NCBI GenBank assembly: GCA_964502145.1
Contig: CAZCVI010000009.1
Span: 73,438-137,437, forward strand
DNA length: 64,000 bases
Reading direction: 5' to 3'
Source of the DNA: an uncultured Clostridia bacterium
GTDB lineage: Bacteria; Acidobacteriota; Aminicenantia; UBA2199
How positions within the stretch are numbered: the first letter of the stretch is position 1; every line of letters starts with the position of its first letter. Made by a program: the position numbers and the translations under genes. Below are positions 16,790 through 57,059 of this stretch, in pieces. A model generated the notes under the pieces. That model did no database searches and had not been told where the DNA came from. It saw only the letters and a list, made by a program, of their open reading frames with translations.

Positions 16790-16900
16790 GTGGACGATAT
16801 GGACAGAGTGGACGACATGGACGATGTGGAACAAAAACAAAAGCATTTATTTGTCCATATCGTCCACACCGATTTTGGATATTTGGCGATGAATCCAGGA
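16789..16900. repeat. TGGAC 9-nt-period palindromic repeat element
   Basis: TGGACGATATGGACAGAGTGGACGACATGGACGATGTGGAAC, loop, GTCCATATCGTCCAC. This is followed by an inverted copy of the leader (CGATTTTGGATATTTGGCG) and the tail GATGAATCCAGG. Confidence 0.7.
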
Positions 16901-21295: not shown

Positions 21296-21383
21296 TTGCC
21301 CACGAATTACACGAATGATCACGAATTTATCGGAAAAAAAACGTTTATTTCCTTTTAATTCGTGACAATTCGTGGAATTCGGT
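21296..21383. repeat. Palindromic element built from CACGAATNN sub-repeats
   Basis: CCCACGAATTACACGAATGATCACGAATT, loop, AATTCGTGACAATTCGTGGAATTCGG. Confidence 0.6.
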
Positions 21384-32832: not shown

Positions 32833-34287
32833 CTATTCGGGGTCCTTCATTTTGCTACGCAGGGCGCTACGGGTAAGTCCCAGATATTGGGCGGTTTTTG
32901 TTTTATTGCCGTCAAACCGTTGCAATACCTTTTGCACGATCTCATCCTCCAGAGCTTTAAGATCGAGTTTATCGGGTGGTAATTTGATTTTCCCTGGTTC
33001 CAACACGCAGGTTTCCACCATCATGGGTTCCATCGGGTTATGTCCGGAGCTTAAAAACTGGAGGTGTTCAGGCCGGATTTCGAAATCATCATAGAGCAGA
33101 ATCACGCGTTCGATAGTATTTTGAAGTTGGCGAATATTTCCGGGCCAGGGAAACTGTTCGAGGGTGGTGATGGTCTCGCGGTGCAAGAAGCGGAATTTAC
33201 GGTTCTTTTTTTCTGCATACTTGAAAAGAAACAACTGGGCAAGGGGTGCGATGGCTTCTTTACGTTCGCGTAGGGGCGGCACAAACACGTAACCGACATT
33301 CATGCGATAATAGAGGTCCTCGCGGAAGCGTCCTTCCTTGACTTTTTGGCTCAAGTCCTGGTTGGTGGCGCACACCACACGGATATCAAGGTTGATCTTC
33401 TTTAAGCCACCGACGCGGTAGATGGCTCTTTCTTCAAGTACGCGGAGTAATTTGGGTTGGATTTCCAAGGGTAGATCGCCGATTTCATCTAAAAATATGG
33501 TGCCGCCTTGGGCAAGTTCGAATTTACCGATCGCACCTTTCTTTTTGGCGTCGGTGAATGCGCCTTCCTCGTAGCCGAACAATTCTGTTTCAAAAAGATT
33601 GCCGGGAATAGCGGAGCAGTTGATAGAAATAAAAGGGGTGGTGATATCACCATTGCCATAGTGGATCATGCGGGCTACGACTTCTTTGCCAGTGCCGGTT
33701 TCACCTTCAATGAGTATGGGAATAGCGCGGTCCTGGTGTAGTTTGACCACAAGGTCGCGGATTTCGCGCATCTTGGCCGAATAAATCCCGATGTCTCCCA
33801 GCCCAACGATTTTACTATAGGCGCTCTGGATGCGCTCATATTTTTCGCGTACCTCGGTGGTGGCTTGATAGAGTTTTTGGTCGAAGTGTTTTTTCAGGTC
33901 GGTATTTTCTTTGAGCAGGGAGATATGTTCTTGGACGCGGAGAACTATGGAAGCCAATTCTTCGACATCAATGGGTTTGAGCAAATAATCATAGGCCCCG
34001 GCGCGCATGGCCTGGATGGCAGAATCCATGTTCCCATAACCGGTAATCAATACTATATCGGTAAAGCGACTTTGCGGCAATCCAGTGATATAGCGGGAGA
34101 GTTCGATACCGTTAATGCCGGGCAGACGAATATCAGAAATGACAAGGGGAAAAGGATTGTCCTGATATAATTTTAATGCCTCGCTACCATTATCACAACG
34201 TGTGACATCATGGCCCAACTGGTGGGTTAAAAAACCGTATATGGCTTGCAAACTGAGTTCTTCATCATCAATTAACAAAATTCTCAT
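32833..34287 (-). CDS. Sigma-54-dependent response regulator (NtrC family)
   Basis: Receiver domain plus AAA+ sigma-54 activator core ([14 protein letters not shown]) and C-terminal HTH. Confidence 0.9.
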
Positions 34288-36352
34288 GGCTGGTATCCTT
34301 GGTTACTGGACTAACTGGACCTATAACTGGAGCTTTTTTTGTGTCATGTTTGGGGGGATTATTTTTTGCATAGAGGGGGAATCTTAAGGTGAAGCGGGCG
34401 CCGACGATGTTATCATCGACTTTCTGGTTGGCGGCATGGATTGTACCGTTGTAACGGTCCACATATTGCTTGACAATAGCGAGTCCCAAACCCATGCCCT
34501 CGCCACCACTGTTGGTGGAAAAGAAGGGGTCCCAGAGTTTTTCAATACTTTCATGGGGGAGTCCGGGGCCGTTGTCGCAAATGACCAAGACGACGTGGTC
34601 GTTGTCCATGGACGTAATCAGTTCGATCTTTTTTTGAACCTGTTTTTTTCCTTTTAGGGCATTAGCAGCATTAACCACGATGTTAACAATAATTTGTTCG
34701 AAATGAATCAGGTTCCCCTGTACCATCAAGGGGTTGGTTGAGGTGCTTAAATATTCTTGGATTCCGTGGTCATGGAGTTGCTGGTGAATAAGGGAGAGGG
34801 CATTGGCCACGGCGACATTAATATCTACAGCGACGATGGCAGGAGAATCGGGGACGACCCAGAAGGCGCGCATGTTCTGGATAATTTCCACGATCCGTTT
34901 AACGGATTTAGAGATGAGGTTTAATTGCTCAATAAAGGGTTCGGGGAGTGCGTTGGGGTTTCGTTTTTGCCAGTATTGGATACTGTCAGCGGTCACTTTA
35001 ATAGCATTGAGGGGTTGGTTGATCTCGTGGGTAATACCGGCGGCCATCACGCCGATAGAAGCAAGTCTGGCAGATTGTTCCACTTGTTTGATGGCGGAAA
35101 TCTGTTTTTTTTCCGCTATTTCTCGGGCCTGACACTCTGTTTCCAATGCTTGTTGCGCCAGTTTATGTTCTTCGATTTCGAGGTTTAATTTGCGGTTGGT
35201 TTCGCGAAGTTCAGCGGTGGCTTCATGAACGGTTTCTTCAAGGTGTTTACGATACTGTCGTAACTCGGTTTCGGCGCGTTTGTGAAAGAAAATCATCAAA
35301 AAGGTAACCAGTCCCATAAACACAAGCAGCATAAAAACAATCTTTTTTTTCTGCCGATTCACGGCATTAAAAGTGTTGGAAATGTCTTTCAGTATAAAAA
35401 CACCGCCTACTTTGCGACCCATGGCATCATAAAAGGGAAACACGCCCCGGACAAAGCGTGTGTCCCCCACGGAGATCATGCCCAGCACCAACCCTTCGTC
35501 AGGGATAGTGGATAGATTATCCAGATTCTTTTGCAATAATTCGGTCTGGGAAGCGATACTGGTGGAGGTGACCAGCAGGTGATGGGTCATATCGTCCCAG
35601 TTGTCCCGCGCCCCTTTTACAGTGACCACGGACATCCAGTCAGCGCGATTGAGATATTTTTTTTCGATCAACAAGCCGTATTCGTGCCCGGTTTGTTTCT
35701 TTAAGTGCCTGAAGAGGTATGCCATTTCAACTCCCAGTTCAATATAACCGATGAGTTGAGTTTTGTGGTAAAAGGGATGGACGGCACGTAAGGCCAGGGC
35801 GGTTTTACCCAGTTCGCTACCAGTAGCCAGTTGCCCGGTACTGATACACTTTTGCAAGGTAAACCGCATGTTTTTATCATTGCGGAAGCCAGGGTTATGA
35901 ACGCGTAAAAAACAGGTTTGGTCTGGTTCGGGAGTAATAAAATACCAGTGGGTAATCCCATTTTGTAACTTGAGATGTTGATAGATAGGCCGGGTGAATT
36001 GATACAACTGCTCGCCATCCCGCATATAAAACAACTCGCCAATAGTCTGATTGGACACCAAACCTTCCAAAGTAGCGGACAACATGTTAACGGTGTTCCG
36101 TTCAAGTTCTTTAAATGCGACGGCGGAATTTTCGATGGTGTTCCGGGTCATAAAATCGACGTTGCTGGTATTGGATATGTTAAATATAATTAAAACACCG
36201 GTAACGCTTATGCCTGCAAGACCAAGAATAAAAAAAATGGCCCGGTAAACAAAAACGAAACGCCTGAGCTTCTTATTACGACTTGTATTATACGTTTCCT
36301 CTATTAAACTTTTCACGCTATATATAATAAGGAAACGGACGACGATTGTCAA
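34268..36352 (-). CDS. Sensor histidine kinase, cognate to the NtrC-like regulator
   Basis: TM segments, sensing region, coiled coil, H-box HEINQPLN, HATPase_c (DNGPGL...GMGLGLAIV). Confidence 0.85.
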   Translation of the reverse strand: MTIVVRFLIIYSVKSLIEETYNTSRNKKLRRFVFVYRAIFFILGLAGISVTGVLIIFNISNTSNVDFMTRNTIENSAVAFKELERNTVNMLSATLEGLVSNQTIGELFYMRDGEQLYQFTRPIYQHLKLQNGITHWYFITPEPDQTCFLRVHNPGFRNDKNMRFTLQKCISTGQLATGSELGKTALALRAVHPFYHKTQLIGYIELGVEMAYLFRHLKKQTGHEYGLLIEKKYLNRADWMSVVTVKGARDNWDDMTHHLLVTSTSIASQTELLQKNLDNLSTIPDEGLVLGMISVGDTRFVRGVFPFYDAMGRKVGGVFILKDISNTFNAVNRQKKKIVFMLLVFMGLVTFLMIFFHKRAETELRQYRKHLEETVHEATAELRETNRKLNLEIEEHKLAQQALETECQAREIAEKKQISAIKQVEQSARLASIGVMAAGITHEINQPLNAIKVTADSIQYWQKRNPNALPEPFIEQLNLISKSVKRIVEIIQNMRAFWVVPDSPAIVAVDINVAVANALSLIHQQLHDHGIQEYLSTSTNPLMVQGNLIHFEQIIVNIVVNAANALKGKKQVQKKIELITSMDNDHVVLVICDNGPGLPHESIEKLWDPFFSTNSGGEGMGLGLAIVKQYVDRYNGTIHAANQKVDDNIVGARFTLRFPLYAKNNPPKHDTKKAPVIGPVSPVTKDTSHENFVN

Positions 36353-36371: not shown

Positions 36372-36530
36372 TTCACCGCCAAGTTTCAGAAAAAACTGGA
36401 CTATCTGGACATACTGGACATTCTGGACTTACTGGACTTCACAAAAGCTTTGATTTTTCCAGCTTGTCCAGTATGTCCAGCGTGCCACGGTTATCTGTGG
36501 CTCTTTTAAAAATGATGGTGAATCCAGGTT
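36372..36530. repeat. TGGAC 9-nt-period palindromic repeat element
   Basis: Leader ATTCACCGCCAAGTTTCAGAAA. Five CTGGACNNN units, a loop, then GTCCAGTATGTCCAG. Tail GATGGTGAATCCAGG. Confidence 0.7.
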
Positions 36531-36808: not shown

Positions 36809-36862
36809 AAACATCATCAGAGTCCAAAAAACTCCTCACTTCTCCTCAAACTGTCAATGGTG

Positions 36863-37021
36863 CAGAAAATTACTCAATCAATTGAGAAAATTACTGTTAT
36901 GTTCGAGAATTTTTCAATAATATTACAGTAATTTTCTATTATATTTGAGAAAATTACTTGAATCACAAAGTAAATTACTGAATCATTCGAGTTATTTTCT
37001 TACTGATTTGAGAAAATTACT
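36863..37021. repeat. ~60-bp tandem repeat array with conserved core TTGAGAAAATTACT (three to four copies)
   Basis: Cores at 36882, 36944 and 37008, a variant at 36863, and an inverted copy AGTAATTTTCT at ~36929. Spacers share TTCGAG and ATTACT. Confidence 0.6.
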
Positions 37022-37512
37022 GCAACCCTAGCCTTATATCGTCATGGATGACGTGATGGCTGAAAATGGCACGCTTTTTTGTTATTTATGGCATGAATAG
37101 GTCTATTTATCACCGTTATTACTGGCGAATTCAGAAATTTCCGAATCCGTGACCTGCCTACGACAAAATTGCCGATCAATATTCAACTATTTGCTTCTAT
37201 CGCTTAAAAACCACTTTATTCATGCTCTTGCGACCCACCAGGGGCAATGGGCAGCACCAAGATGAAATTATGCCCTAAGTGGGCGAATTTTCCCCAATAA
37301 CGGTCATTCTTCATTTTCTCAGAAATATCACTCTATTTAAATATAAAGCCTTTATTCTCAGCATCTTTTCTCCATTATGAAAGTATGCCATAAAAAGAGC
37401 AGAGGAAAAAGCAAAAGAGCCTCCCTAAATTCACTCCCAATACTTTAAATGACTATTAAACAATATGGGAAGAATGGGAGAGCGGGGGATAGGCAGCGCC
37501 CCAAAGAGCACT

Positions 37513-37543
37513 AGGATCAACTCCCGTTGATCCTAGTGTCTTT
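37513..37543 (-). terminator. Perfect 13-bp stem hairpin immediately downstream of the S8 protease gene
   Basis: CACTAGGATCAAC / TCCC loop / GTTGATCCTAGTG. T-tracts on both sides are modest. Confidence 0.45.
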
Positions 37544-37560
37544 AGGATTGTATTACTGTT

Positions 37561-40500
37561 TTATTTAAACTTCGGTGTTATTTTTATTTCTACAACTACT
37601 TTTTGTGGCGTATCGTGGGTACTTTCACGGATAAACTCCAGGCGATACTTGCCCAGAAAGCCAGCACCGGGTTGCCAATAAAAGATTCCCCGCTGACTAT
37701 CCAAGGTAGAACCTATAGGTAATGAAGACAACGCAGTCACACTGACCACACTACCTTCAACCGGGGCAAAATGCATCTCCACCCGTTCCAACTCTTTGAT
37801 TTCCGTGGTTACCACACCATCCACATCCGGGGCAATGGGTTTTAATTCCGTATCCTGACGATAACCCCGGCTCACTCTCACCGGCGTGACAGAATCGACG
37901 GGAAAAAGAGACATATCCCGCTCAACAGTGGATTCACCCGAATGAGAATTCATCTGAGTGACAGCAGTATCGCTTCGGCCATGAATGTTTTGAATAGTGA
38001 AATAGCGACTACCAATACCATCTGAATCCCCACCACTATCTGTAGCTGTCCACTGGATGGTGTGAATCCCGTTCTTATACGTCGTGGTATTCAACGTGCG
38101 CACGCCAACTGCACCATTGCTGTTGGCATAACCGGGGAAAAGGGTTGCTATATCTGACCGATAGAGATTGTAAGTGGGATGACCCAGATTGACACCGTCT
38201 ACCCAAACATCAATTTTGGAACCATTGGTAGCTATGGAATGGGGTTGCGGGGTTAACACCCAGCCCCAGTTGGCAAAACTGGAACCTGCCGCTGTTCCAC
38301 CCTGGGCAGGAGTATCCAGCGCACCAAAGGGTTTGACTGCACTGTTATTGGTCAGGTTTATGGTCTTGGAACCGAGTGAAACCTGATTGCCCTCAGCATC
38401 GGTAGCCACGGCATACAATGTATAATACCCATTCCCACCACCGGGTAAGAAGTAGGTCAGAAGCATGTACCCCCAACCGGCTTTATAACTCTTCGGATGA
38501 GTGGGATAAGCAGCGGCGACATCGGGTCGCGAACCTTCCACAAAAACGGCATCGCCAACATAATCTGGGCCATTGTATATCTTCACACTGACAACTTCAA
38601 TATCATCCAAGGCCCATCCAGTCACGGGAATACTGCCATTACCAGTAGAACCATCCAGCGGGGTGGCAAATTCACCAAAAGGCACGGTATTTACGCCCCA
38701 GTTAGACACGGTCAGGTCAACGGAAATAGTTCGCGGGGTATTAGAGGCCCCGGAAGCACTCACGGTGATTTTACCACTATAACTTCCCGCTGCCAAACCA
38801 GTCGGATTGGCTGTTACGGTCAGTACTCCAGACTGCGAGCCAGACGCGGGACTGACACTCAACCAGGAGGAATCAGACACGGTAGTCCACGTTAATGTAC
38901 CAGCACCACTGTTGTCGATCAATATGGTTTGCGCGGTAGTCACAGTATTGTCGACACGGGCACCAAAATTAAGCTGGGTGCGACCCAGATTGATTTTCGG
39001 CGGGGTGGATGAGATAATACTGAACACGGCGTTGGAAGTATCCGTGGGACTGCTATCAGAAGCCTCGCTGACCCTCACCAAACAGGTCGAGGACGTGGTG
39101 GCGGGCAGGGTCCAGGGATGGGTAGCATCATTGGGGGTACTGGCCACGATTACTGTCCAATTGCTGCCATTGTTGGTGGAATATTCGATTTTTACGTTCC
39201 CCACGGCATTGGTCGTGCTCCAGGTAATATTGTGGGCAGAGCTTGTCACCCAGCTCTCACCGCCATTGGGAGAGGTCACGGCAATGGTGGGTGTAGTGGA
39301 CGTGATAATTGAAAAAACAGCATTCGAAGCATCGCTGGGACTTCCATCGGAAGCTTCACTGATCTTGATTTTGCATTGGGCTGATGCGGAATTGGGCACA
39401 GTCCAGGTAAAGGAACCATCATTGGATGTGGATGAAGTCACTGTAGACCAACTACTGCCGTTATTGCTGGAGTATTGGATTTTAACATTGCCCACGGTGC
39501 CACTGCTCGTCCAGGTAATATTTCGGGAAGAGTTTATCGTCCAACTCTCCGCACCATTCGGTGCAGTCACGGTGATGGAACTGGACCCACCCAATAATTG
39601 GGTGATAGCCGCGCCCACATCAATTCGGGGCACAGTTCCAGTGCCACAAACGCTGCTGACCGCTTTGCCAGTACTACGTAACGCATTGTAAATATCCGTG
39701 ACACTCGCGGAAGATTTGGCTTGCCTCAGTAACGCCCAGGCACCCGTGACATGGGGGGTGGCCATGGAGGTTCCGTCCCACGATTTATAGCTGGAATTGC
39801 TTTCGCCGATGGAGGAATAAACGGAAACGCCCGGCGCGAACAGTTCGGTCAGGGTGCGGTGCCAGTTATTAAAAGAGGCTTCAGAATCGCTGTCTGTCGT
39901 GGCCCCTACGGCCACCGCCGAAGAGATACAGCTAGGAGAACCGACATAACCACAGTACCCGTTATTACCGGTGGCAATACAGGTGGCGATATTAGCCGAT
40001 TTCAGATTATCAATGGCCGCTTTCTGAATGGCGCTATCGCAATAGGCGCTATAAGAACCCCCGCCTAAACTCATATTAACCGCGCCAATACTGTAGGAAC
40101 CACGCAACGTATAGATATATTCCAAACCGGCTACCTGATCTGAATTATAGGACATGACGCACAGGTCACCATCGCAATCTTCGGTACCAAAACGGGAGAA
40201 TACCTGTACGGCGATAATATTGCTGTTTTTAGCCACGCCAGTTAAGCTGCCATAGTTCCCAGTGGCAATACCAGCTACATGGGTACCATGATCATAACCA
40301 TCGTATGAACTTTCATAATGCGCGGCAGACCCGGTGCCAGTCATGGATGTACTGCCGTTAGGGCAATCGCTAAGAGCTGAAAAACAGGCTTCCTTGATCG
40401 TTTTTCCGGTGAAAAACTGGTGCGTGCGCAAGATGCCCGTGTCCAAAATAGCCACATACCAACCACTACCCGTGTAACCCATGGTCCACGCATCATCGGC

Positions 40501-41070
40501 GCCGATTACTTTCACCGTGTTGCTCAACATGGTGCGACTTAAATTATCGTTGTTTGTGGGGGTAGTTTTGACCAATGGCTGCTTGAATAGTTGCGCGTCA
40601 GATAAATCATCGGCCAGTTTCACCGGTTTATCCTCGACGATTTCCAGCACATTGGGAAGGGTCGCTATAAATGACATGGCTTGGGGTGAGACATCCAAGG
40701 CCAAGTAAGGTAATGTTCGATAAGTATGGTTGATCCGGTAATCCAAACCGTTCAAACTATGCAGTACTGTAGAAGTCACTGCTTCGATGGCATTGGCCAA
40801 CGCCAAGTCCGCATCAATTCCAGCCTGCGGAAATACAATGCCAGGTTCTATCGTCCCAAACTGGGTGGACGCTGCGGTTAATTGGTTTATACCCGGTACA
40901 TCTAACTTAACGATCACTTTGGTATAACCTTGTGCCGCTACCGGTGTGTCCACGGCAGAAGAGATGATGGGGATACATAAGATAGCCATGAATAATAACC
41001 ACACAGAATAATGGCCGATTTTGTGCAGCACTTTTTTGTTTTTAACAGGCAAATTGCATCTGCTCCTCAA
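37561..41070 (-). CDS. Secreted subtilisin-like serine protease (peptidase S8) with multiple Ig-like repeats and a conserved C-terminal module
   Basis: Catalytic-triad motifs DTGI (Asp), HGTHVAGIA (His), GTSMATPHVTGAWALL (Ser). Signal peptide. Repeated ~90-aa domains TVTAPNGAESW...ITWTSSGTVGNVKIQYSSNNGSSW. Confidence 0.85.
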   Translation of the reverse strand: MRSRCNLPVKNKKVLHKIGHYSVWLLFMAILCIPIISSAVDTPVAAQGYTKVIVKLDVPGINQLTAASTQFGTIEPGIVFPQAGIDADLALANAIEAVTSTVLHSLNGLDYRINHTYRTLPYLALDVSPQAMSFIATLPNVLEIVEDKPVKLADDLSDAQLFKQPLVKTTPTNNDNLSRTMLSNTVKVIGADDAWTMGYTGSGWYVAILDTGILRTHQFFTGKTIKEACFSALSDCPNGSTSMTGTGSAAHYESSYDGYDHGTHVAGIATGNYGSLTGVAKNSNIIAVQVFSRFGTEDCDGDLCVMSYNSDQVAGLEYIYTLRGSYSIGAVNMSLGGGSYSAYCDSAIQKAAIDNLKSANIATCIATGNNGYCGYVGSPSCISSAVAVGATTDSDSEASFNNWHRTLTELFAPGVSVYSSIGESNSSYKSWDGTSMATPHVTGAWALLRQAKSSASVTDIYNALRSTGKAVSSVCGTGTVPRIDVGAAITQLLGGSSSITVTAPNGAESWTINSSRNITWTSSGTVGNVKIQYSSNNGSSWSTVTSSTSNDGSFTWTVPNSASAQCKIKISEASDGSPSDASNAVFSIITSTTPTIAVTSPNGGESWVTSSAHNITWSTTNAVGNVKIEYSTNNGSNWTVIVASTPNDATHPWTLPATTSSTCLVRVSEASDSSPTDTSNAVFSIISSTPPKINLGRTQLNFGARVDNTVTTAQTILIDNSGAGTLTWTTVSDSSWLSVSPASGSQSGVLTVTANPTGLAAGSYSGKITVSASGASNTPRTISVDLTVSNWGVNTVPFGEFATPLDGSTGNGSIPVTGWALDDIEVVSVKIYNGPDYVGDAVFVEGSRPDVAAAYPTHPKSYKAGWGYMLLTYFLPGGGNGYYTLYAVATDAEGNQVSLGSKTINLTNNSAVKPFGALDTPAQGGTAAGSSFANWGWVLTPQPHSIATNGSKIDVWVDGVNLGHPTYNLYRSDIATLFPGYANSNGAVGVRTLNTTTYKNGIHTIQWTATDSGGDSDGIGSRYFTIQNIHGRSDTAVTQMNSHSGESTVERDMSLFPVDSVTPVRVSRGYRQDTELKPIAPDVDGVVTTEIKELERVEMHFAPVEGSVVSVTALSSLPIGSTLDSQRGIFYWQPGAGFLGKYRLEFIRESTHDTPQKVVVEIKITPKFK

Positions 41071-41195
41071 TTTTTCCTCCGATCTTTAGTATTTTATATT
41101 TCTGAAAGGAACTACACCTTTCAATTAATTCAAAAAAAGTTTAGCACATTTTCAAAGGAAATTCAACTGGGAAATTTAAGATGGATGCACAGCCA

Positions 41196-41305
41196 ACTTC
41201 TTGAAATCGTTATGGACTATATGGACTATATGGACGAAATGGACGTTATGGACGAAATGGACGTTCTGGACAAAAGAGGCTATTCGTCCAGATCGTCCAT
41301 ACGGC
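41196..41305. repeat. TGGAC 9-nt-period palindromic repeat element
   Basis: CTTGAAATCGT leader, then ATGGACTAT ATGGACTAT ATGGACGAA ATGGACGTT ATGGACGAA ATGGACGTT CTGGAC, loop, CGTCCAGATCGTCCAT. Lies between the two protease genes. Confidence 0.7.
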
Positions 41306-41306
41306 T

Positions 41307-44300
41307 TTAAAATTTAGGGACTATGTTTATTACTACACTCACTTTCTGCGGCTGACCATCGGCCCCCTGGCGGGCAAACATTAGGGTGTACTTACCTAAA
41401 AAGCCAGGGCCGGGCTGCCAGTAAAAGATGCCTTTATCTCTATCCACGGTAGAACCGACGGGCAAAGGAGAAATCGCCTCCACCGGACCCTGGCTCCGCA
41501 AACGTATTTCTACCCGTTCGTCCTCTTTGATCTCTAACGCGAAAACACCATCAGACGCAGGGAGAATCTCTTGGGGTTCAACATCCTCGCGGTAACCGCG
41601 TAACAGACCGATGGCAACGGTGGTATCTTTCTGCAATTCACGATGACTGGCACTGAAATCCAACGTGGCGGAAGTTTCTGCGTGGCGGCTACTGGCATTA
41701 TAAATCGAGAAATAGCGACTGCCGATTCCATCCGTATTACCAGCGGTGTCTTTGGCTGTCCACTGGATAGTGTGAATGCCATTGGCATAGGTGGTGGTAT
41801 TGAGGGTACGATACCCGACAGCACCATTACTGTTGGCATAACCGGGGAAAAGTGTCGCAATATCAGAGCGATACAAATTATAAATGGGATGTCCGAGATT
41901 CACGCCATCTACCCAGACATCAATCGTGCTGCCATTGGTTGCAATCGAATTGGGCTGCGGGGTTAATACCCAGCCCCAGTTCAGAAAACTTGAACCTGAA
42001 GCCGAACCACCCTGTAGCGGCGTATCAATGGCGCCAAAAGGTTTGACTGCACTGCTGTTGGCCACGGTAATAGTTTTGAAACCCAGGGAGAGTTGATGGC
42101 CCTCGGCATCGGTAGCAATGGCATATAAGGTATACTCACCATTCCCACCACCGGGTAAGAAATTTGTCAAAAGCATGTACCCCCACCCGGCCTGGTAATT
42201 TTTAGGGAAACCAGGATAAGCGCCTTCCACATCGGGTCGAGCGCCTTCAACAAATACGGCATCGCCAATGTAAGCGGCTCCATTGTATATTTTCACGCTG
42301 ACCACTTCAATATCATCCAATACCCAGCCGGTCACCGGAATGCTGCCCATGGCAATAGTGCCGTTTACCGGGGTGGAAAATTCACCGAAGGGCTGGGTTG
42401 TAGTTCCTGAATTAATCATGGTCAGGTTAACGGTGATGGTTTGCGGGGAATTGGTAGCCCCGTTCGCACTAACAGTGATAGTGCCGACATCCATCCCAGC
42501 GGAGAGGACAGTAGGAACAACGGAAACAGAAAGTATCCCGGACTGGGTCCCAGACGCGGGACTGACGTGCAACCAGGATGCATTGGAACTAGCGCTCCAC
42601 GTCAATGTACCACCACCACTGTTGCCGATTAATACAGTTTGCGTGGAAGTTTTTGCGCCACCTGTATCCGCACCAAAATAAAGCTGGGTGCGGTCCAGTT
42701 TAATTTTAGATGGAGTTGGAGAGCTGGAAGAGATAGTGAAAACACTATTGGAACTATCAACGGGACTGCCATCGGAGGCTTCACTAACCCTTACTTTGCA
42801 AGTAGTAGACGTGGTGGAAGGCAGGGTCCAAGAATGGGAACCATCATTGGCGGTAGCTGCGATTATTGGGGTCCAACTACTGCTGTTATTAATGGAGTAT
42901 TCGATTTTTATATTGCCCACTGAGCCAGTAGTGCTCCAGGTAATGTTATGGGTAGAACTTGTGAGCCAATTTTCACCACCATTGGGAGAGGTCACGGTAA
43001 TAGTTGGGGAAGAAGAAGTGGTGATGGTAAAAGCAGCATTGGAAGAATCAGTAGGACTGCTATCGGCTGCTTCGCTGATCCGTACTTTACAAGTCGCGGA
43101 AGCAGCATTGGGGACAGTCCAGGAATAGGAACCGTCATTGCCTGTGGTATTGATTGCCGTGGTCCAATTACTGCCATTATTCGTGGTGTATTCAATTTTT
43201 ACATCTCCCACGGTGCCGCTAGTACTCCAAGTAATGTATTGGGTGGAACCCACTGCCCAACTTTCACCACCATTGGGAGAGGTCACGGTGATAGTTGGAG
43301 TAGGAGTACTGCCCGATACCCTAAAATTAGCCACGGTGGAGGCGGTATTGTTTAAAGCCCGGCGATTATCTGCGGCCAAGGGGTCGGAATATAATACACC
43401 CATGGGTTGTCCCCCATAGGTTTTATCTGGGTTTGACCAATAATTCACACGGGTACAACCCGGAGTAGCGCAATTGTAAGCCATAATCGTGCGGAATGCT
43501 TTATCTGGGGCTTGGTAGCCATACGCATAAGAATAAGCGCCCTGACCACCCCCGGTATTGGCACGGTCATGATGACAGCCCATGTTATGGCCCAACTCGT
43601 GGGCAAAAGAGTAATACCCCGTGGCACAGGTCAAAGATACCAGTGCAAATGCATCGGAGGCAAAAGAGGTGCTCACGGTAGTCATTAGGTACGCTAATCC
43701 GCAATAGCCGGTGTCATTGACCAGCAACACGACCTCGTCAGCAACGTAGGTATTACGCAAAGTATGAACTTCATCCATATACCCGTCCGCTGTGCCTTGC
43801 AGTCTATCCAGAGTGGCGCTCCAGTTAAAACTGGTTTCGCTGTAATCGACTTCTGCCGAATGGACCAGCCTGATCCGTTGGGAGACGCCGCTGTTGCTGT
43901 ATCCCGCATTGGATTCGGTAACTGCCAGGGTGATCAAGGTTTGCATGGCGCTGGTGCCACCCGCCGCAGCACGGGCCGCTTGGTCATACACTACCAGCAC
44001 GTCAATAGTGTCGCCACTGTCCGCCACCACGCCGTCTAGAACTGGCTCTTTTGTAACCATGGCCAAGGTTTGATGGTTGATTTTTTCCGTGTCTGTTAGC
44101 GCGCACGATGGAAATTTGGAGTGATCTATTTCGTGGATAGCATGAATACCATCGCTGATATACCGGATCTCATAAAAGGCATCAGGCAAAGAAATATTTC
44201 CCGACATAATACCATCTTTATAGACCAGGATCACTTGGCCATAATTTATTCCGTCAATAGTTCCAATCCATGAGAAACGGCCCCCATCATCAATTTCCAA

Positions 44301-44597
44301 ACGTTGGAGCATAGCCCGGTAATACACACCGCCGAATAAATTTAATTCCAAAGTATTGCCTAGATCGGCTTTTTTATCAGTCTCGGCAGGTAATAAGTTG
44401 AAATCCACGGTTACAAAGCGGGTGCGTATAATAGTTGGCACCAGAAACCGTTGGGGATCACCCTGGAATATTGTATCCGCAAAAAGGTCCTGTGGTTCTT
44501 GCACTGCCAAGAGCGGTGTACTCATTCCTATTATCTGCAAGAATAACAGACCTATTAATACAGCTACCAGTACCTTTATCTTTGATATTTTTCTCAT
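41307..44597 (-). CDS. Secreted zinc metalloprotease (metzincin, HExxHxxGxxH) with Ig-like repeats and the same C-terminal module as the S8 protease
   Basis: HELGHNMGCHHD zinc-binding motif. Signal peptide MRKISKIKVLVAVLIGLLF. The C-terminal ~400 aa are nearly colinear and highly identical to those of the 37561-41070 product (for example PFGEF.TP..G...GSIPVTGW.LDDIEVVSVKIYNG). Confidence 0.8.
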   Translation of the reverse strand: MRKISKIKVLVAVLIGLLFLQIIGMSTPLLAVQEPQDLFADTIFQGDPQRFLVPTIIRTRFVTVDFNLLPAETDKKADLGNTLELNLFGGVYYRAMLQRLEIDDGGRFSWIGTIDGINYGQVILVYKDGIMSGNISLPDAFYEIRYISDGIHAIHEIDHSKFPSCALTDTEKINHQTLAMVTKEPVLDGVVADSGDTIDVLVVYDQAARAAAGGTSAMQTLITLAVTESNAGYSNSGVSQRIRLVHSAEVDYSETSFNWSATLDRLQGTADGYMDEVHTLRNTYVADEVVLLVNDTGYCGLAYLMTTVSTSFASDAFALVSLTCATGYYSFAHELGHNMGCHHDRANTGGGQGAYSYAYGYQAPDKAFRTIMAYNCATPGCTRVNYWSNPDKTYGGQPMGVLYSDPLAADNRRALNNTASTVANFRVSGSTPTPTITVTSPNGGESWAVGSTQYITWSTSGTVGDVKIEYTTNNGSNWTTAINTTGNDGSYSWTVPNAASATCKVRISEAADSSPTDSSNAAFTITTSSSPTITVTSPNGGENWLTSSTHNITWSTTGSVGNIKIEYSINNSSSWTPIIAATANDGSHSWTLPSTTSTTCKVRVSEASDGSPVDSSNSVFTISSSSPTPSKIKLDRTQLYFGADTGGAKTSTQTVLIGNSGGGTLTWSASSNASWLHVSPASGTQSGILSVSVVPTVLSAGMDVGTITVSANGATNSPQTITVNLTMINSGTTTQPFGEFSTPVNGTIAMGSIPVTGWVLDDIEVVSVKIYNGAAYIGDAVFVEGARPDVEGAYPGFPKNYQAGWGYMLLTNFLPGGGNGEYTLYAIATDAEGHQLSLGFKTITVANSSAVKPFGAIDTPLQGGSASGSSFLNWGWVLTPQPNSIATNGSTIDVWVDGVNLGHPIYNLYRSDIATLFPGYANSNGAVGYRTLNTTTYANGIHTIQWTAKDTAGNTDGIGSRYFSIYNASSRHAETSATLDFSASHRELQKDTTVAIGLLRGYREDVEPQEILPASDGVFALEIKEDERVEIRLRSQGPVEAISPLPVGSTVDRDKGIFYWQPGPGFLGKYTLMFARQGADGQPQKVSVVINIVPKF

Positions 44598-44780
44598 TTG
44601 CTAAACCTCCAAAGTCCTTGCCGTTTATTATGTTCTGTTCTATTATTGCATAAGCATAACATTTTTTCAACCCAAATTATTCTTATTTACTATGAATAGA
44701 AGGGTGAAGCGGCGACTCCATGAAGACAATGGAGGCACAACACACATGAAAAAAAAATGACCCCGTTTTGGTTCTTTAAT

Positions 44781-45957: not shown

Positions 45958-46650
45958 CAAAACAATCTGTGGGTGAATTCTGGTTCGGGTAACTTCCCCA
46001 ATGCATGATAACACAGTATTTCCGCAGCCGTATAGGTTCTAAATCCATAAGCTTTTCTGAATGTCAATTTCAGCTTGTTATTTAACCCTTCAACAGCCCC
46101 CGACGACAACTCTTTTTTTGCCTTAAACCAATTCAATATAAGCGGTTTATGCCTATGTATTTTTTTTGCATTATCTTAAATAGGTCCGATCTTTGAATAC
46201 ATGACTTTTTTCATCCAGCGATTGATAAACCATTCCGCCCAATAAGGAGAGACGTAATCCCATAGACGTTGAAAGTCTTCTTTAAGAAGATAGCTCTTCA
46301 CAGTTTTTAGGTTCTGCTTAAGGAGTTCGGCTAATTTCTGTTCCTGTGATTCCGATAGATTTTCCAGGTTCTTCAAAAAAATTCACTTGCACTTCCTCAG
46401 AACTGGTTGTTTGCCATCTTTCTTCATTTTTGTAATTTCCTGGTTCCTGACTTTATTAATGGCTTTGCTTATCTGAGCCATGATATAGAAACGGTCGAGA
46501 ACATGAAGTGCGTTTCCTGCATTTTTTGCGATGACATTAATATATGCTTCCCCATATCACTGCAAATAAACTTCAGCTTCTTAATCCTCTCCTCTTGGAA
46601 GAAATTGAGATATCTTTATGTCCCATTTCAATCAAATTCATTTTGCGGCC
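45958..46650 (-). mobile_element. ISL3-family transposase remnant (C-terminal ~230 aa, frameshifted, N-terminus missing)
   Basis: Minus-strand translations (spread over more than one frame) give ...WKAYINVIAKNAGNALHVLDRFHIMAQISKAINKVRNQE..., ...QRLWDYVSPYWAEWFINRW..., ...SSGAVEGLNNKLKLTFRKAYGFRTYTAAEILCYHALGKLPEPEFTHRLF*, the conserved ISL3 DDE and C-terminal motifs. Confidence 0.65.
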
Positions 46651-46687
46651 TACATCGAAAGCCCAGGTTTTTTTTAGCCAATCCCGC

Positions 46688-46909
46688 TCAATCAAGATTT
46701 TCCTGGGTTTTTGCTTTGCTATTGCTACTATTGGATTCGGAAAATATCTCGCTGGCTTTTTCAAGAAAAATCTGTTTCCATTTGGTCAGTTGGGTCGGAC
46801 GCACCCCGTGTTTGCTGGCTATTTCTGAAAGGGTCTGGGTGCCGCCAAGCATTTCCAGAACCATTTTGGTCTTGAACTCTGCGCTATGTTTGCGTCTGCT
46901 TTTACTCAT
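46688..46909 (-). pseudogene. IS3-family transposase OrfA (HTH_Tnp_1) fragment, truncated before the leucine-zipper region
   Basis: RRKHSAEFKTKMVLEML.GTQTLSEIASKHGVRPTQLTKWKQIF matches HTH_Tnp_1. An A8 run at ~46670 resembles the IS3 A-AAA-AAG slippery site, but the downstream frame is not OrfB-like. Confidence 0.6.
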
Positions 46910-47646: not shown

Positions 47647-47663
47647 GTATGAGAGGTGAAAAC

Positions 47664-48755
47664 ATGTCTACTAACAATTCGAACGATAAAAAACAAGGCC
47701 CTGGATACCAGGAGAAGTCCAATCGTATCAGTGTCTGGAGTGAGTTCATACGCTCATTCAGTAAATTTGTTTGGCTGATCGTGGCGATCATTGTACTGGT
47801 TACATTGGGGAAAATCTTTGTCTTTAAATCCGACAAAGGACTCCTGGAACATAAATTCGTCAAGAAACCGGTAGTACAGCGGGTGGATTGGAGCAAAGTC
47901 AATAAAACCATTGCCAAAACTATGACTGAAGCCAGGCTGAGCACGGAACAAATGGCTGCCAGCAAACTGGATCTATGGATTGCTGACAATATGAAACGGG
48001 TAGATGATGATTTCTTAGAATGGTATTTTGGATATTGGACCCAACAGAAACTTGGTTTAAAAAGTTTATTGGCGCAGGTATGGCACTGGGTTGACAGCGA
48101 CAGTCCGACTGCGGCAGAGAAGTTGACCATGGAAGTACAGGAGGAGTTCACCAACCGCGTGATACGTCCGCAAATCGCGCAACTGGAGATTGAGCGTATT
48201 ATCGGTGAGATTGTGGCTCACTACTCTGCTACTTTAAAAGATAAATTGAAAAATATCCCGGTGGAGTATAAAATCAGTCCTGCCGAATGGGACCGGTATA
48301 TTGGCGATATTGCGTTAATAGTTAAGAATGTTGAAGCAAATCGCAGCACGCCGCTAACCTTAAAAGCCATGGTTGGTCTCACTGCGGGTGGTACTATAAT
48401 GGTAGTCAGTACATTGCGGCCCATGATCACCAGGATTGGTGCCCGTATCTCTGCCCGTTTGGCCACAAAAACGGCGGCGCAAATGGCAGCGAAAACAGGG
48501 GGAAAAGTGGCGGCGAAAACAGGGGGAAAGTTCCTGGGTTCTATTATCGCCATCGGTATTATTATATGGGATGTATGGGACCACTACTCGACCAAAGCGA
48601 AAGCACAACCAATTCTAAGACAAAATATCCATGATTATTTGCAAGAAGTGAAACAGTCGATCTTGCACGACCCGAGTTACGGTATTATGACTATTATTTA
48701 CCAGATGGAACAGGGTATTTCAGTTGATGTGAAAACGCAAAATACAGGGACTTGA
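47664..48755 (+). CDS. Hypothetical membrane protein with N-terminal and C-terminal TM segments and an AAKTGGK repeat
   Basis: Start moved to the second ATG (MSTNNSND...), because the first ATG falls inside the predicted 5'UTR. TM helix FVWLIVAIIVLVTLGKIFVF. C-terminal repeat AAKTGGKVAAKTGGK, then LGSIIAIGIIIW. Confidence 0.55.
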   Translation: MSTNNSNDKKQGPGYQEKSNRISVWSEFIRSFSKFVWLIVAIIVLVTLGKIFVFKSDKGLLEHKFVKKPVVQRVDWSKVNKTIAKTMTEARLSTEQMAASKLDLWIADNMKRVDDDFLEWYFGYWTQQKLGLKSLLAQVWHWVDSDSPTAAEKLTMEVQEEFTNRVIRPQIAQLEIERIIGEIVAHYSATLKDKLKNIPVEYKISPAEWDRYIGDIALIVKNVEANRSTPLTLKAMVGLTAGGTIMVVSTLRPMITRIGARISARLATKTAAQMAAKTGGKVAAKTGGKFLGSIIAIGIIIWDVWDHYSTKAKAQPILRQNIHDYLQEVKQSILHDPSYGIMTIIYQMEQGISVDVKTQNTGT

Positions 48756-50833: not shown

Positions 50834-50933
50834 GTCCACAGATTACACAGATTAAAATGATTATCACAGATTTTTTTTTAAAAAACTTTTTTAATCATGT
50901 TAATCCATGGAATCTGTGTAATCTGTGGATATC
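50834..50933. repeat. Palindromic element built from CACAGATTA sub-repeats
   Basis: TCCACAGATTACACAGATTAAAATGATTATCACAGATT, a T/A loop, then AATCATGTTAATCCATGGAATCTGTGTAATCTGTGGA. Confidence 0.65.
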
Positions 50934-53801: not shown

Positions 53802-54265
53802 CCTTTTCTCCTTTTCCCGCCCGAAAAACATATCCGAACCAATGGGAATCATCTTTCTTTCTGTGTACGGATTGGTCAACGTTTTTTCTTCCGTCATGTG
53901 TTGCGTCCCTTCTTCTTTTTTTTCAATTGTTCGCCATAATTTCCTATTATACAAATATCGCGATTGATTTGCAATACCCACAAATGGATTTCAGGAAGAG
54001 ATCGTTTCTGAACCGTGATGCGTGGGATTATAGGATGACCGGGATGAAAGAATTGGAGTCTGCCAAATGGGATATTCCTGATTATTTTCGCTGTGGTTTG
54101 GAATGAATTTTCGACACACAGACCCTATCACCCTTAAAAAACCAGAATTTTTCAACTACCGTGATTGAATTTTTATGAGGCAAGACCTGGCCATTTCTTC
54201 CATGCACAAGCCACTTTTTTTCAAATCGTTGCGGACGCTATGAACGATTAGGAAGTCTTCACCAT

Positions 54266-56816: not shown

Positions 56817-57059
56817 TCTTAATTAAGACTATTAGAGGAGCAACACCCAAACTCCCCTAATTCCCATAATTCCCCTATTTCCCATCACTCCCAATCCAAC
56901 ATTTAAGGAGGTCATTTTTAAAATTTGACCTCCTAATTTAGGTTTAAGCCGCCCAAAATTGATGTTCACTAGGTGAATTCCTCTTTTTTCAGGTTATTTT
57001 TCATATTTTCAATCCTAATTCTTGACATATTTTTCAAAAAAGATTAATATATAGAATCA

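What the first reader, a model, noticed from the sequence alone, without database searches (positions are those of the whole stretch)
37561..44597. Tandem secreted S8 serine protease and metzincin sharing a near-identical ~400-aa C-terminal module
Two adjacent minus-strand genes encode different catalytic classes (subtilisin Asp/His/Ser; HELGHNMGCHHD metzincin). Both carry the same series of ~90-aa Ig-like repeats (SPNGGESW...ITWS...VGNVKIEYSTNNGS.W). Their last ~400 residues are colinear and highly identical (PFGEF.TP..G...GSIPVTGW.LDDIEVVSVKIYNG ... IATLFPGYANSNGAVG.RTLNTTTY.NGIHTIQWTA.D), ending in a conserved ~100-aa tail (GIFYWQPG.GFLGKY.L.F). This indicates recent domain shuffling or gene conversion between proteases. 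The shared C-terminus may be a sorting/anchoring or substrate-targeting module that I cannot assign to known CTDs (T9SS, PEP-CTERM, LPXTG). Each gene is followed by a TGGAC palindromic element, and the pair sits next to an NtrC-type two-component system.
Basis: seen in the sequence. Interest (0 to 1): 0.6.

Follow-up and report, generated by a model that had tools for sequence, protein, structure and literature searches.

The report
Shared C-terminal cassette on secreted proteases
Two neighbouring secreted proteases of an uncultured Aminicenantes-type bacterium carry the same unannotated C-terminal cassette of Ig-like domains, which tags dozens of unrelated secreted proteins per genome and whose last domain sits exactly where other bacteria place a type IX secretion signal, so it is probably a new surface-display or sorting tag.

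Summary
Two adjacent minus-strand genes encode an intact S8 subtilase (37561-41070) and an M12/reprolysin-like metzincin (41307-44597).

It is not a recent exchange: dS is 1.0-1.4 in every segment and the longest identical DNA run is 23 nt.

The last ~480 aa form a conserved cassette: BACON, two Big_7-like domains, a disordered linker and a ~110-aa terminal domain.
- More than 2,400 database proteins carry it, with up to 25 copies per MAG (Aminicenantes, Bryobacterales).
- The tail ends within 22 residues of the stop codon in 91 of 92 ORFs.
- It follows signal-peptide-bearing, unrelated passengers (LRR, beta-propellers, LTD, lectins, peptidases).

The tail has no Pfam or NCBIfam hit and no similarity to T9SS CTDs. 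It is a divergent He_PIG/cadherin-like Ig domain (hhalign 97.8%; AF2 pLDDT 88). In other bacteria the same BACON-Big_7-Big_7 triad is followed by a genuine T9SS type A sorting domain instead.

Best reading, inferred and not shown: a surface-display module whose tail is a lineage-specific targeting or anchoring domain. The TGGAC claim is half right.

The parts
37561..41070 (-). S8 subtilase gene (1169 aa from the TTG preceded by GGAGG; a public gene call gives 1163 aa). Layout: signal peptide ~1-39, pro-region, S8 domain 201-468, then the shared domain string.
39667..40470 (-). S8 catalytic domain (aa 201-468) with DTG at 210, HGTH at 261 and GTSMA at 433.
   Evidence: Pfam PF00082 E=6e-33; motif positions
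39007..39579 (-). S8: two ~95-aa Kre9/KNH-like Ig repeats (aa 498-688). These are optional in the wider family.
   Evidence: (PF10342, 24.2 bits, just under the 24.6 cutoff)
38695..39006 (-). S8: BACON domain (aa 689-792), first element of the conserved cassette.
   Evidence: PF19190 33.7 bits against cutoff 25; PDB sequence matches only here
37981..38694 (-). S8: bigA (aa 793-910) and bigB (aa 911-1030), two Big_7-like beta-sandwich domains. This is the most conserved part of the cassette (dN/dS 0.15 and 0.09).
37891..37980 (-). S8: non-conserved linker (aa ~1031-1060), predicted disordered.
   Evidence: pLDDT below 50 for model residues 342-364; ~4-23% identity between the two proteins
37564..37890 (-). 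S8: terminal tail domain (aa 1061-1169), a He_PIG-like Ig sandwich with the motif LPIGSTLD..RGIFYWQPG.GF.G.Y.
41307..44597 (-). M12/reprolysin-like metzincin gene (1096 aa). Layout: signal peptide ~1-31, N-terminal region, catalytic domain 197-388, then the same domain string.
43434..44009 (-). Metzincin catalytic domain (aa 197-388). The zinc motif HELGHNMGCHHD (aa 333-344) is at 43566-43601; the Met-turn IMAY is at aa 371.
   Evidence: PF13688 E=7e-22; NCBIfam Mep72 132 bits, below its 645 cutoff
42738..43295 (-). M12: two Kre9/KNH-like Ig repeats.
41697..42737 (-). M12: BACON, bigA and bigB.
41310..41627 (-). M12: terminal tail domain, ending ...NIVPKF.
41211..41300 (-). 9-bp-period GTCCANNNN array with inverted TGGAC arms directly after the M12 stop. 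It folds as a hairpin (-28.5 kcal/mol, z=-4.7).
37509..37538 (-). Perfect 13-bp inverted repeat 23 nt after the S8 stop, part of a longer stem (-33.6 kcal/mol, z=-8.4). Probably a transcript-end hairpin. It is not a TGGAC element.
44642..44670 (-). Best sigma-70-like promoter match (TTGAAA-17-AATAAT with TG) ~45 nt upstream of the M12 start. No comparable site lies in front of the S8 gene, so the pair may be co-transcribed.
   Evidence: a consensus match only
32833..36352 (-). NtrC-type two-component system downstream of the pair: dCache_3 histidine kinase, then a sigma-54-activator response regulator.
   Evidence: similar regulators lie directly upstream of cassette genes in L002, L007 and L018

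Best explanation
The two genes are old paralogous members of a large family of Sec-exported proteins in Aminicenantes-type Acidobacteriota. Each member is a variable 'passenger' fused to a constant C-terminal cassette: BACON, Big_7-like A, Big_7-like B, a flexible linker, and a ~110-aa He_PIG-like terminal domain. Here the passengers are an active-looking S8 subtilase and an M12 metzincin.

Proposed mechanism:
1. The signal peptide takes the protein across the inner membrane.
2. The conserved BACON-bigA-bigB triad is a rigid, strongly selected stalk or binding unit.
3. The terminal domain, set off by a disordered linker, is recognised by a common partner. That partner either carries the protein across the outer membrane or holds it on the outer face, as the T9SS C-terminal domain does in Bacteroidota.
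4. The result is a cell surface decorated with proteases, LRR proteins, propellers and lectins that all share one attachment or sorting device.

Shown: the domain architecture, the family-wide distribution, the C-terminal position, the passenger diversity, the T9SS-CTD swap, the He_PIG relationship, and purifying selection.
Inferred: export to the surface, recognition of the tail by a partner, and any cleavage at the linker.
For: 1. The tail is multi-copy. 108 confirmed stretches were found in about 14 MAGs out of 185,579 species genomes: 25, 16, 15 and 11 tail-bearing ORFs in the four richest.
2. Position. The tail ends within 22 residues of the stop in 91 of 92 ORFs (median 2), once per protein. 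The representative search shows the same for hundreds of clusters.
3. The tail is always preceded by bigA and bigB, and nearly always by BACON.
4. Hosts start with signal-peptide-like N-termini. They carry unrelated passengers: LRR in 22 of 62, LVIVD 7, DUF7948/SBBP 6-7, DUF11, LTD, Laminin_G_3, metallo-beta-lactamase, lectin-like, M28, S8 and Kelch, plus M43.
5. P0170, P0175, P0179 and P0256 are signal peptide, (BACON-bigA-bigB) twice, then a T9SS type A CTD (TIGR04183 33-42 bits, cutoff 23). P0171 has the closest matching build: BACON-bigA, a Kre9-like repeat in place of the first bigB, then BACON-bigA-bigB, ending in the tail. Similarity between P0171 and P0170 stops exactly at the end of the last bigB.
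6. The motif LPIGSTLD..GIFYWQPG.GF.G.Y is invariant across genomes.
7. The AF2 models are confident: tail pLDDT 88, cassette pLDDT 84.5 and pTM 0.77, with a disordered linker before the tail.
8. dN/dS is 0.09-0.30 with dS above 1.
9. Tandem cassette genes are common: 12 of 78 loci.
10. A beta-sandwich CTD is a known outer-membrane export signal in T9SS (PMC4804311).
Against: - No partner or machinery was found. The recurrent neighbours of cassette genes are generic: AAA-ATPases, radical SAM, TPR, MacB/FtsX.
- The tail is a member of an adhesin-type Ig superfamily (He_PIG), so it could simply be one more adhesion or spacer domain.
- About 20% of tails are followed by 6-22 extra residues, and one by 76. 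A free C-terminus is therefore not required.
- Within the window pair the tail is the least conserved cassette domain (51-55%).
- At about 480 aa the cassette is far larger than any known sorting signal.
- There are no localisation or proteomic data.
- Whether these genomes lack a T9SS was not tested. It rests on the literature statement that T9SS is specific to the FCB superphylum (PMC12398890).
Confidence: 0.5

Rival explanations
1. The cassette is a shared ligand-binding (CBM-like or adhesin) module with no role in sorting. BACON, bigA, bigB and the He_PIG-like tail together bind one polymer, either the organism's own exopolysaccharide or an environmental glycan or protein. Exoenzymes and binding proteins are thereby concentrated on the same substrate. 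The tail is simply the last Ig domain.
For: - bigA and bigB are the most strongly constrained parts (dN/dS 0.09-0.15; many invariant Trp, Tyr, Arg, Asp and Asn).
- The T9SS-tagged proteins consist of nothing but two triads plus a CTD, so the triad is a functional unit in its own right.
- BACON domains occur on glycan-active enzymes; the PDB matches are BoGH5A, GH115, GH16 and a sulfatase.
- He_PIG and cadherin-like domains are typical of adhesins.
Against: - It does not explain why the tail, and not the triad, is swapped for a T9SS CTD.
- It does not explain why the tail is almost never internal or repeated, unlike ordinary He_PIG domains, which occur in 8-25 tandem copies.
- It does not explain the disordered linker that sets the tail apart.
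- BACON in BoGH5A is reported to act as a spacer rather than a binding domain (from my own knowledge, not checked here).
Confidence: 0.3
2. The tail is a dockerin-like docking domain. It binds non-covalently to a cell-surface scaffold, for example a giant He_PIG or cadherin-repeat protein, and so assembles a multi-enzyme surface complex analogous to a cellulosome.
For: - One constant small C-terminal domain sits on many different enzymes and binding proteins per genome, which is the dockerin pattern.
- The tail profile matches the repeats of giant He_PIG proteins. Ig-type domains often pair homotypically.
Against: - No scaffold gene was identified next to cassette genes.
- The giant He_PIG proteins found were not shown to come from the same genomes.
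- Export across the outer membrane still has to be explained.
Confidence: 0.1
3. The tail is a very divergent T9SS C-terminal domain, and these proteins are ordinary T9SS cargo.
For: - It has the same position, similar size and a beta-sandwich fold, and is interchangeable with a T9SS type A CTD after the same triad.
Against: - No TIGR04183, TIGR04131 or PF18962 hit on either window protein.
- hhalign of tail against CTD gives probability 0.2%, whereas tail against He_PIG gives 97.8%.
- The top fold matches are Rib, dystroglycan and cadherin domains, not CTDs.
- The carriers are Acidobacteriota, outside the FCB superphylum to which T9SS is reported to be specific (PMC12398890).
- Only one marginal T9SS-type CTD hit (E~1e-3, L062) turned up in ~0.8 Mb of held loci.
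Confidence: 0.05
4. One reading: the shared C-terminus results from recent domain shuffling or gene conversion between the two neighbouring protease genes.
For: - The two copies are adjacent.
- They are closer to each other (66% over the cassette) than to any database homologue (58% or less).
Against: - dS is 1.0-1.4 in every segment, with no tract of elevated DNA identity.
- The longest identical run is 23 nt.
- Third-position identity is about 50% even at 93% protein identity.
- The same cassette is on more than 2,400 proteins with other passengers.
Confidence: 0.02

Closest known systems
T9SS cargo proteins with a type A C-terminal domain (TIGR04183 / PF18962), e.g. gingipains (PMC4804311)
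   Same: Sec signal peptide, variable passenger (often a protease), Ig-like domains, then a ~80-110-aa beta-sandwich at the extreme C-terminus. Dozens of cargo proteins per genome, scattered or in tandem. The same BACON-bigA-bigB triad occurs with a true T9SS CTD in other bacteria.
   Different: There is no sequence or profile similarity between the tail and T9SS CTDs. The tail belongs to the He_PIG superfamily. The carriers are Acidobacteriota rather than FCB bacteria. No machinery, cleavage or anchoring has been shown.
He_PIG (PF05345) / dystroglycan-type cadherin-like / Rib-type Ig domains of adhesins
   Same: hhalign gives 97.8% probability at E=7e-13 over 75 columns. They share the motif LP.G..lD..tG.F.W.P....G.Y. 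Foldseek hits are Rib-long, dystroglycan and cadherin EC domains at TM 0.5-0.6.
   Different: Pfam's own He_PIG model does not reach the tail, even at E<=10. The tail is single-copy and terminal rather than in long tandem arrays. It has a ~27-residue N-terminal extension with a conserved IEIKELER strand and a much more strongly conserved core motif.
NCBIfam 'choice-of-anchor' domain families (e.g. NF012200 choice_anch_D)
   Same: The logic is the same: a homologous extracellular region is followed by different C-terminal sorting signals in different lineages. Here the triad is followed either by the tail or by a T9SS CTD. P0175 and P0179 also give sub-threshold choice_anch_D hits on the first BACON region.
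   Different: Only one known alternative anchor (T9SS) was seen. The tail itself is not a recognised anchor.
Dockerin-bearing cellulosomal enzymes
   Same: One small constant C-terminal module sits on many different secreted enzymes in one genome.
   Different: The fold is different (Ig sandwich against a Ca-binding EF-hand pair), and no cohesin-like partner was identified.
Mep72 of Pseudomonas aeruginosa (NF052434) and subtilases with C-terminal Ig/PKD extensions
   Same: The metzincin catalytic region aligns with positions 1-254 of the Mep72 model (E=2e-38). Secreted proteases with C-terminal beta-sandwich extensions are common.
   Different: The score of 132 bits is far below the 645-bit equivalog cutoff, and the C-terminal domains are unrelated to those of Mep72.

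Membership tests
Peptidase S8 (subtilase) | Pfam PF00082 match above the gathering score | tested here: met
   114.8 bits against 21.8, residues 201-468
Peptidase S8 (subtilase) | Asp-His-Ser triad in the order D, H, S within the conserved motifs | tested here: met
   DTG at 210, HGTH at 261, GTSMA at 433
Metzincin, M12/reprolysin-like | Reprolysin-type Pfam match above the gathering score | tested here: met
   PF13688 79.1 bits against 27; PF13583 and PF13582 also above their cutoffs
Metzincin, M12/reprolysin-like | HExxHxxGxxH(D) zinc motif and a downstream Met-turn | tested here: met
   HELGHNMGCHHD at 333-344; IMAY at 371
Mep72 equivalog (NF052434) | Whole-protein score at or above the 645-bit cutoff | tested here: not met
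   132 bits; only model positions 1-254 of 573 align
T9SS type A or type B C-terminal sorting domain | Match to TIGR04183/PF18962 (type A) or TIGR04131 (type B) at the C-terminus | tested here: not met
   No such hit on either protein at E<=0.1. hhalign of the tail against type A CTDs gives probability 0.2%.
T9SS type A or type B C-terminal sorting domain | T9SS machinery (PorK/L/M/N, Sov, PorU, PorV) present in the genome | not testable with these tools
   Only a 64-kb window and ~12-kb loci were available. The literature places T9SS in the FCB superphylum (PMC12398890).
PEP-CTERM, LPXTG and other transmembrane-helix sorting signals | Short signature motif, then a hydrophobic helix and a basic tail at the C-terminus | tested here: not met
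   The proteins end ...VVVEIKITPKFK and ...VSVVINIVPKF, within a predicted beta-strand. There is no NCBIfam sorting-signal hit.
He_PIG (PF05345) Ig domain | Pfam model match above the gathering score | tested here: not met
   No Pfam hit on either tail at E<=10
He_PIG (PF05345) Ig domain | Profile-level homology and fold | tested here: met
   The tail profile hits He_PIG repeat proteins at 10-28 bits per repeat. hhalign 97.8%, E=7e-13. Foldseek hits are Rib, dystroglycan and cadherin domains. This is a superfamily relation, not family membership.
BACON domain | PF19190 or PF13004 match above the gathering score | tested here: met
   PF19190 33.7 and 32.8 bits against 25
Big_7 (PF17957) | Pfam match above the gathering score | tested here: inconclusive
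   bigA alone scores 26.2 bits against 24.1 but covers only model positions 1-41 of 70. bigB has no Big_7 hit.
Proposed new family: BACON-bigA-bigB-tail cassette proteins | Tail domain at the extreme C-terminus, preceded by bigA and bigB (usually BACON too), with an N-terminal signal peptide | tested here: met
   Both window proteins fit. The pattern holds in 91 of 92 ORFs from 14 MAGs.

The most novel reading that the evidence does not exclude
The ~110-aa He_PIG-like terminal domain is the recognition signal of an undescribed outer-membrane export or surface-attachment pathway of Acidobacteriota (Aminicenantia, Bryobacterales). This pathway would be functionally analogous to T9SS but evolutionarily independent of it. 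It would have its own translocon or 'sortase' and dozens of cargo proteins per genome, including these two proteases.
Probability: 0.3. Interest if true: 0.8.

Novelty: new variant of a known kind. Interest (0 to 1): 0.55.

Why it matters
Aminicenantes and Bryobacterales are abundant and mostly uncultured degraders in sediments, soils and peat. How they put proteases and binding proteins on their surface is unknown.

A constant C-terminal cassette on up to 25 secreted proteins per genome gives three practical handles:
- It is absent from Pfam and NCBIfam.
- It is interchangeable with a T9SS sorting domain.
- An HMM of the tail would at once define the surface or secreted proteome of these lineages, and would allow phylogenetic profiling for the matching machinery.

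If the tail is a sorting signal, it is a new protein-sorting system in a major phylum. If it is not, the triad is a highly conserved and widespread binding unit of unknown ligand.

For the window itself, the result corrects the 'recent gene conversion' reading. The two proteases become ordinary members of this family.

Tried and rejected
- Pfam and NCBIfam on the isolated tails: no hits.
- tblastn of every cassette segment against the window: no third copy of the tail.
- Sigma-54 promoter consensus: 40 matches against 30.7 expected, and none upstream of either protease gene. Control by the adjacent NtrC-type regulator is therefore unsupported by promoter evidence.
- Synteny search for sorting machinery around 78 loci: only generic recurrent neighbours.
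- The window's 882-aa Big_7 protein (27805-30453) was checked as a possible cassette relative. It is not one.
- Foldseek of the four-domain model: only generic Ig strings such as titin and cadherins.
- PDB sequence search: only BACON matches.
- Rfam on the window: nothing. No tRNAs.
- Literature searches for the cassette in Aminicenantes, or for T9SS in Aminicenantes: nothing.
- A very wide phyletic spread was considered and toned down. The 'Omnitrophota' MAG222 has a Lon 80% identical to the window's. 'Deferrimicrobium' DATGXF proteins are 70-75% identical over their full length to Aminicenantes ones. Both are probably Aminicenantes-type or mis-binned.

Full report
OBSERVATION.
- The first is a subtilase: Pfam Peptidase_S8 at E=6e-33, residues 201-468, with DTG at 210, HGTH at 261 and GTSMA at 433.
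- The second is a reprolysin-like metzincin: Reprolysin_5 at E=7e-22, with HELGHNMGCHHD at 333-344 and a Met-turn IMAY at 371. Its catalytic region resembles Mep72 but scores far below the equivalog cutoff, 132 against 645 bits.
- Both start with signal-peptide-like sequences.
- BLASTP aligns S8 498-1168 with M12 435-1096 at 64% identity over 676 positions. The shared part is therefore ~670 aa, not ~400, and it is true colinear identity.

By segment:
- two ~95-aa Kre9/KNH-like Ig repeats, 57-73% identical
- BACON domain, 59%
- Big_7-like domain 'bigA', 75%
- related domain 'bigB', 86%
- a non-conserved ~30-aa linker
- a ~110-aa tail, 51-55%

No third copy of the tail exists in the window.

NOT A RECENT EXCHANGE.
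- The codon alignment of the shared region is 70% identical at the DNA level.
- Third positions are about 50% identical even where the proteins are 93% identical.
- The longest identical nucleotide run is 23 nt.
- Nei-Gojobori dS is 1.0-1.4 in all five segments. dN/dS is 0.16 (repeats), 0.27 (BACON), 0.15 (bigA), 0.09 (bigB) and 0.30 (tail).

The divergence is uniform, old and under purifying selection, and there are no conversion tracts. The two cassettes are nevertheless each other's closest relatives: 66% against 58% or less for any database protein. This fits an old within-lineage duplication.

THE TAIL IS A FAMILY-WIDE C-TERMINAL TAG. A first search with the tail found 18 metagenomic fragments that share IEIKELER...LPIGSTLD..RGIFYWQPG.GF.GEY..VFI...I.PKF at their C-termini.

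A scan of one genome per bacterial species (185,579) with the motif G[IV]FYWQPG gave 108 confirmed stretches in about 14 MAGs only, but many per MAG. Among the 78 loci kept there are 92 tail-bearing ORFs:
- 25 in an Aminicenantes MAG (JAPKZK01)
- 16 in another Aminicenantes MAG (WVZO01)
- 15 in an 'Acidobacteriota' MAG (JAUPLE01)
- 11 in MAG222 (JBLMYT01)
- 1-7 each in the remaining ten MAGs: six Bryobacterales/Paludibaculum, the 'Deferrimicrobium' DATGXF, two further Aminicenantes and one further Acidobacteria MAG

The tail ends within 5 residues of the stop in 73 ORFs and within 22 in 91 (median 2), once per protein. Twelve of the 78 loci hold two or three such genes side by side, so the tandem pair in the window is typical.

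An exhaustive profile search of 1.8 billion representatives found 2,025 proteins at E<=1e-10, in two classes:
- proteins with one full-length tail at the very C-terminus
- giant proteins with 8-25 weak matches to the second half of the profile only

THE TAIL IS THE END OF A CONSERVED CASSETTE. In every complete host ORF the tail is preceded by bigA and bigB, and in nearly all by BACON. The Kre9-like repeats are optional.
- A search with the 481-aa cassette returned 2,444 proteins at E<=1e-10. Many are labelled Candidatus Aminicenantes.
- Host proteins begin with signal-peptide-like N-termini.
- The regions upstream of the cassette are unrelated to one another: LRR in 22 of 62, LVIVD propellers 7, DUF7948/SBBP 6-7, DUF11 4, lamin-tail 3, Laminin_G_3, metallo-beta-lactamase, fn3, lectin-like, M28, S8 and Kelch, and M43 peptidases.
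- Proteases are thus a minority of passengers.

WHAT THE TAIL IS.
- Neither Pfam (E<=10) nor NCBIfam r20 (E<=0.1) recognises it.
- The second class of profile hits are He_PIG (PF05345) tandem-repeat proteins.
- A profile-profile comparison of the tail alignment with He_PIG repeats gives 97.8% probability, E=7e-13, over tail columns 28-104. Caveat: those repeats were picked from hits of the tail profile, although Pfam independently calls them He_PIG.
- AlphaFold2 on the 19-sequence alignment gives a nine-strand all-beta model, pLDDT 88.4 and pTM 0.81.
- Its best PDB matches are Rib-long, dystroglycan cadherin-like and cadherin EC domains at TM 0.5-0.6.

The tail is therefore a divergent He_PIG/cadherin-like Ig domain with a ~27-residue N-terminal extension. 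It is not a known sorting domain. hhalign against T9SS type A CTDs gives 0.2% probability, and there is no C-terminal hydrophobic helix.

THE KEY COMPARATIVE CLUE. Among the best cassette hits are proteins that cover only BACON-bigA-bigB and carry PF18962.
- P0170, P0175, P0179 and P0256 are signal peptide, (BACON-bigA-bigB) twice, then a T9SS type A sorting domain (TIGR04183 33-42 bits, cutoff 23).
- P0171 is the closest tail-ended counterpart: BACON-bigA, a Kre9-like repeat in place of the first bigB, then BACON-bigA-bigB and the tail. Aligned with P0170 it is colinear up to the ...F(I/V)(V/I)QN end of the last bigB, and similarity then stops.
- The gene for P0179 lies beside SusC-like CarboxypepD_reg/Plug/TonB-receptor genes, which fits an FCB-type organism.

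The tail thus occupies, as a swappable unit after a short linker, the slot that a proven outer-membrane export and anchoring signal occupies elsewhere. That signal is itself a beta-sandwich (PMC4804311). T9SS is reported to be specific to the FCB superphylum (PMC12398890). The tail-bearing genomes are Acidobacteriota.

STRUCTURE OF THE CASSETTE.
- AF2 on a 38-sequence alignment gives pLDDT 84.5 and pTM 0.77. There are four beta-sandwich domains and one disordered stretch, model residues 342-364 (S8 1030-1052), just before the tail.
- Foldseek finds only generic Ig strings.
- PDB sequence profiles hit only the BACON part: BoGH5A 3zmr, GH115 4zmh, a sulfatase and a GH16.
- bigA and bigB carry dense invariant positions and have the lowest dN/dS. 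They are more than spacers.

CONTEXT.
- The window matches a 136-kb contig of JGI metagenome 3300020048.
- The closest named relatives of its Lon protease are Candidatus Aminicenantes (83%), the 'Omnitrophota' MAG222 (80%) and Acidobacteriota (77%).
- 'Deferrimicrobium' DATGXF proteins are 70-75% identical over their full length to Aminicenantes ones.
- The true host range is therefore probably Aminicenantes-type lineages plus Bryobacterales, narrower than the MAG labels suggest.
- Gene order on the minus strand: IS remnants, a TPR protein, M12, S8, a 1.2-kb gene-free gap, a dCache_3 histidine kinase, an NtrC-type regulator, a Ser/Thr kinase fused to FGE-sulfatase, and a membrane Big_7 protein.
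- NtrC-type regulators also lie directly upstream of cassette genes in L002, L007 and L018. The kinase/Big_7 pair lies beside tail genes in L001, L021 and L076.
- No sigma-54 promoter consensus lies in front of either protease gene. The only good promoter-like site is sigma-70-like, 45 nt before the M12 start.
- No sorting machinery emerged from synteny.

THE TGGAC ELEMENT. It is a tandem array of 9-bp units GTCCANNNN with inverted arms.
- Four copies occur in the window against none expected by chance.
- Three fold into strong hairpins, z from -4.7 to -14.
- One lies directly after the M12 stop.
- The one nearest the S8 gene is 1.1 kb away. The S8 stop is followed instead by an unrelated perfect hairpin.
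- The arrays occur only in contigs of this organism among the 86 loci held at the time.

INTERPRETATION. The best-supported reading (confidence about 0.5) is a shared surface-display module. Sec export is followed by recognition of the terminal He_PIG-like domain by a common partner, which exports or retains the protein at the cell surface. The strongly conserved BACON-bigA-bigB triad acts as stalk and/or binding unit.

Rivals:
- a pure ligand-binding module without a sorting role (0.3)
- a dockerin-like docking domain (0.1)
- a divergent T9SS CTD (0.05)

The architecture, distribution, C-terminal placement, anchor swap, fold class and selection regime are shown. Localisation, partner and cleavage are inferred.

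VERDICT. I rate this a new variant of a known kind: a C-terminal tag or cassette for secreted proteins that current domain libraries do not annotate. Interest is moderate to good. The protease pair itself is ordinary, but it exposes a large uncharacterised family that makes the question of surface sorting in Acidobacteriota directly testable.

Noticed in passing
window 10979-11073, 16789-16831, 36395-36480, 41211-41300: A family of intergenic elements built from 9-bp units GTCCANNNN in tandem, usually with an inverted TGGAC arm set. There are 17 pattern matches against 0 expected. Three of the four fold into long hairpins (down to -63.9 kcal/mol, z=-14). Among the 86 loci held at the time they occur only in contigs of this same organism. 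They look like a lineage-specific REP-like repeat.
   Followed up: partly
window 22517-22552, 50837-50872 with inverted 50892-50927, 56846-56893, 21301-21327: Further 9-bp-period tandem arrays with other units (CACAGATTA, TCCCATAAT, CACGAATTAT). This suggests a general class of 9-bp-periodic intergenic repeats in this genome.
   Followed up: no
window 36859-37037: About eight copies of the 11-mer AGAAAATTACT / AGTAATTTTCT, in both orientations, at 21-bp spacing (two helical turns). They lie inside the 1.2-kb gene-free gap between the S8 gene and the histidine kinase gene. They look like an operator- or iteron-type array of protein-binding sites.
   Followed up: no
window 27805-32719 (minus strand); L001, L021, L076: A gene pair recurs next to tail-bearing genes in three other loci. 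It is a Ser/Thr kinase fused to an FGE-sulfatase domain (772 aa), followed by a membrane-anchored repeat protein ending in two Big_7 domains (882 aa). This may be a functional link or only synteny among related genomes.
   Followed up: partly
L002, L007, L018 (and window 32833-36352): Sigma-54-dependent NtrC-type response regulators, with a histidine kinase in L007 and L018, lie directly upstream of cassette genes and co-oriented with them in three other MAG loci. No sigma-54 promoter consensus was found in front of the window's protease genes.
   Followed up: partly
L076 924-3443: A Big_7-type ORF ends at a single in-frame TGA and is followed at once, in the same frame, by a complete stand-alone tail domain (P0011-like, 109 aa). 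This could be a pseudogene, a rearrangement remnant or a read-through.
   Followed up: no
window ~46176-46909: Short remnants of transposase genes (HTH_Tnp_1 and an ISL3-family DDE fragment) lie upstream of the TPR-M12-S8 block, according to the public gene calls.
   Followed up: no
JBLMYT01 (MAG222, L048, L051, L062 and others) and DATGXF01 (L007, L037, L044 and others): The MAG labels look unreliable. The 'Omnitrophota' MAG222 encodes a Lon 80% identical to the window's Aminicenantes-type Lon. 'Deferrimicrobium' DATGXF proteins are 70-75% identical over their full length (76-88% DNA identity) to Aminicenantes MAG proteins. Mislabelling or mis-binning is likely.
   Followed up: partly
window 51369-53981 and 54992-55759: A large caspase-like protein (Peptidase_C14 plus Lcl_C, 842-870 aa) lies beside a MotA/ExbB and MotB/OmpA pair. 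No link to the finding was examined.
   Followed up: no
window 48468-48529: A 24-bp tandem repeat (2.6 copies) inside ORF 47649-48755 encodes the repeated peptide AAKTGGK(V/F).
   Followed up: no
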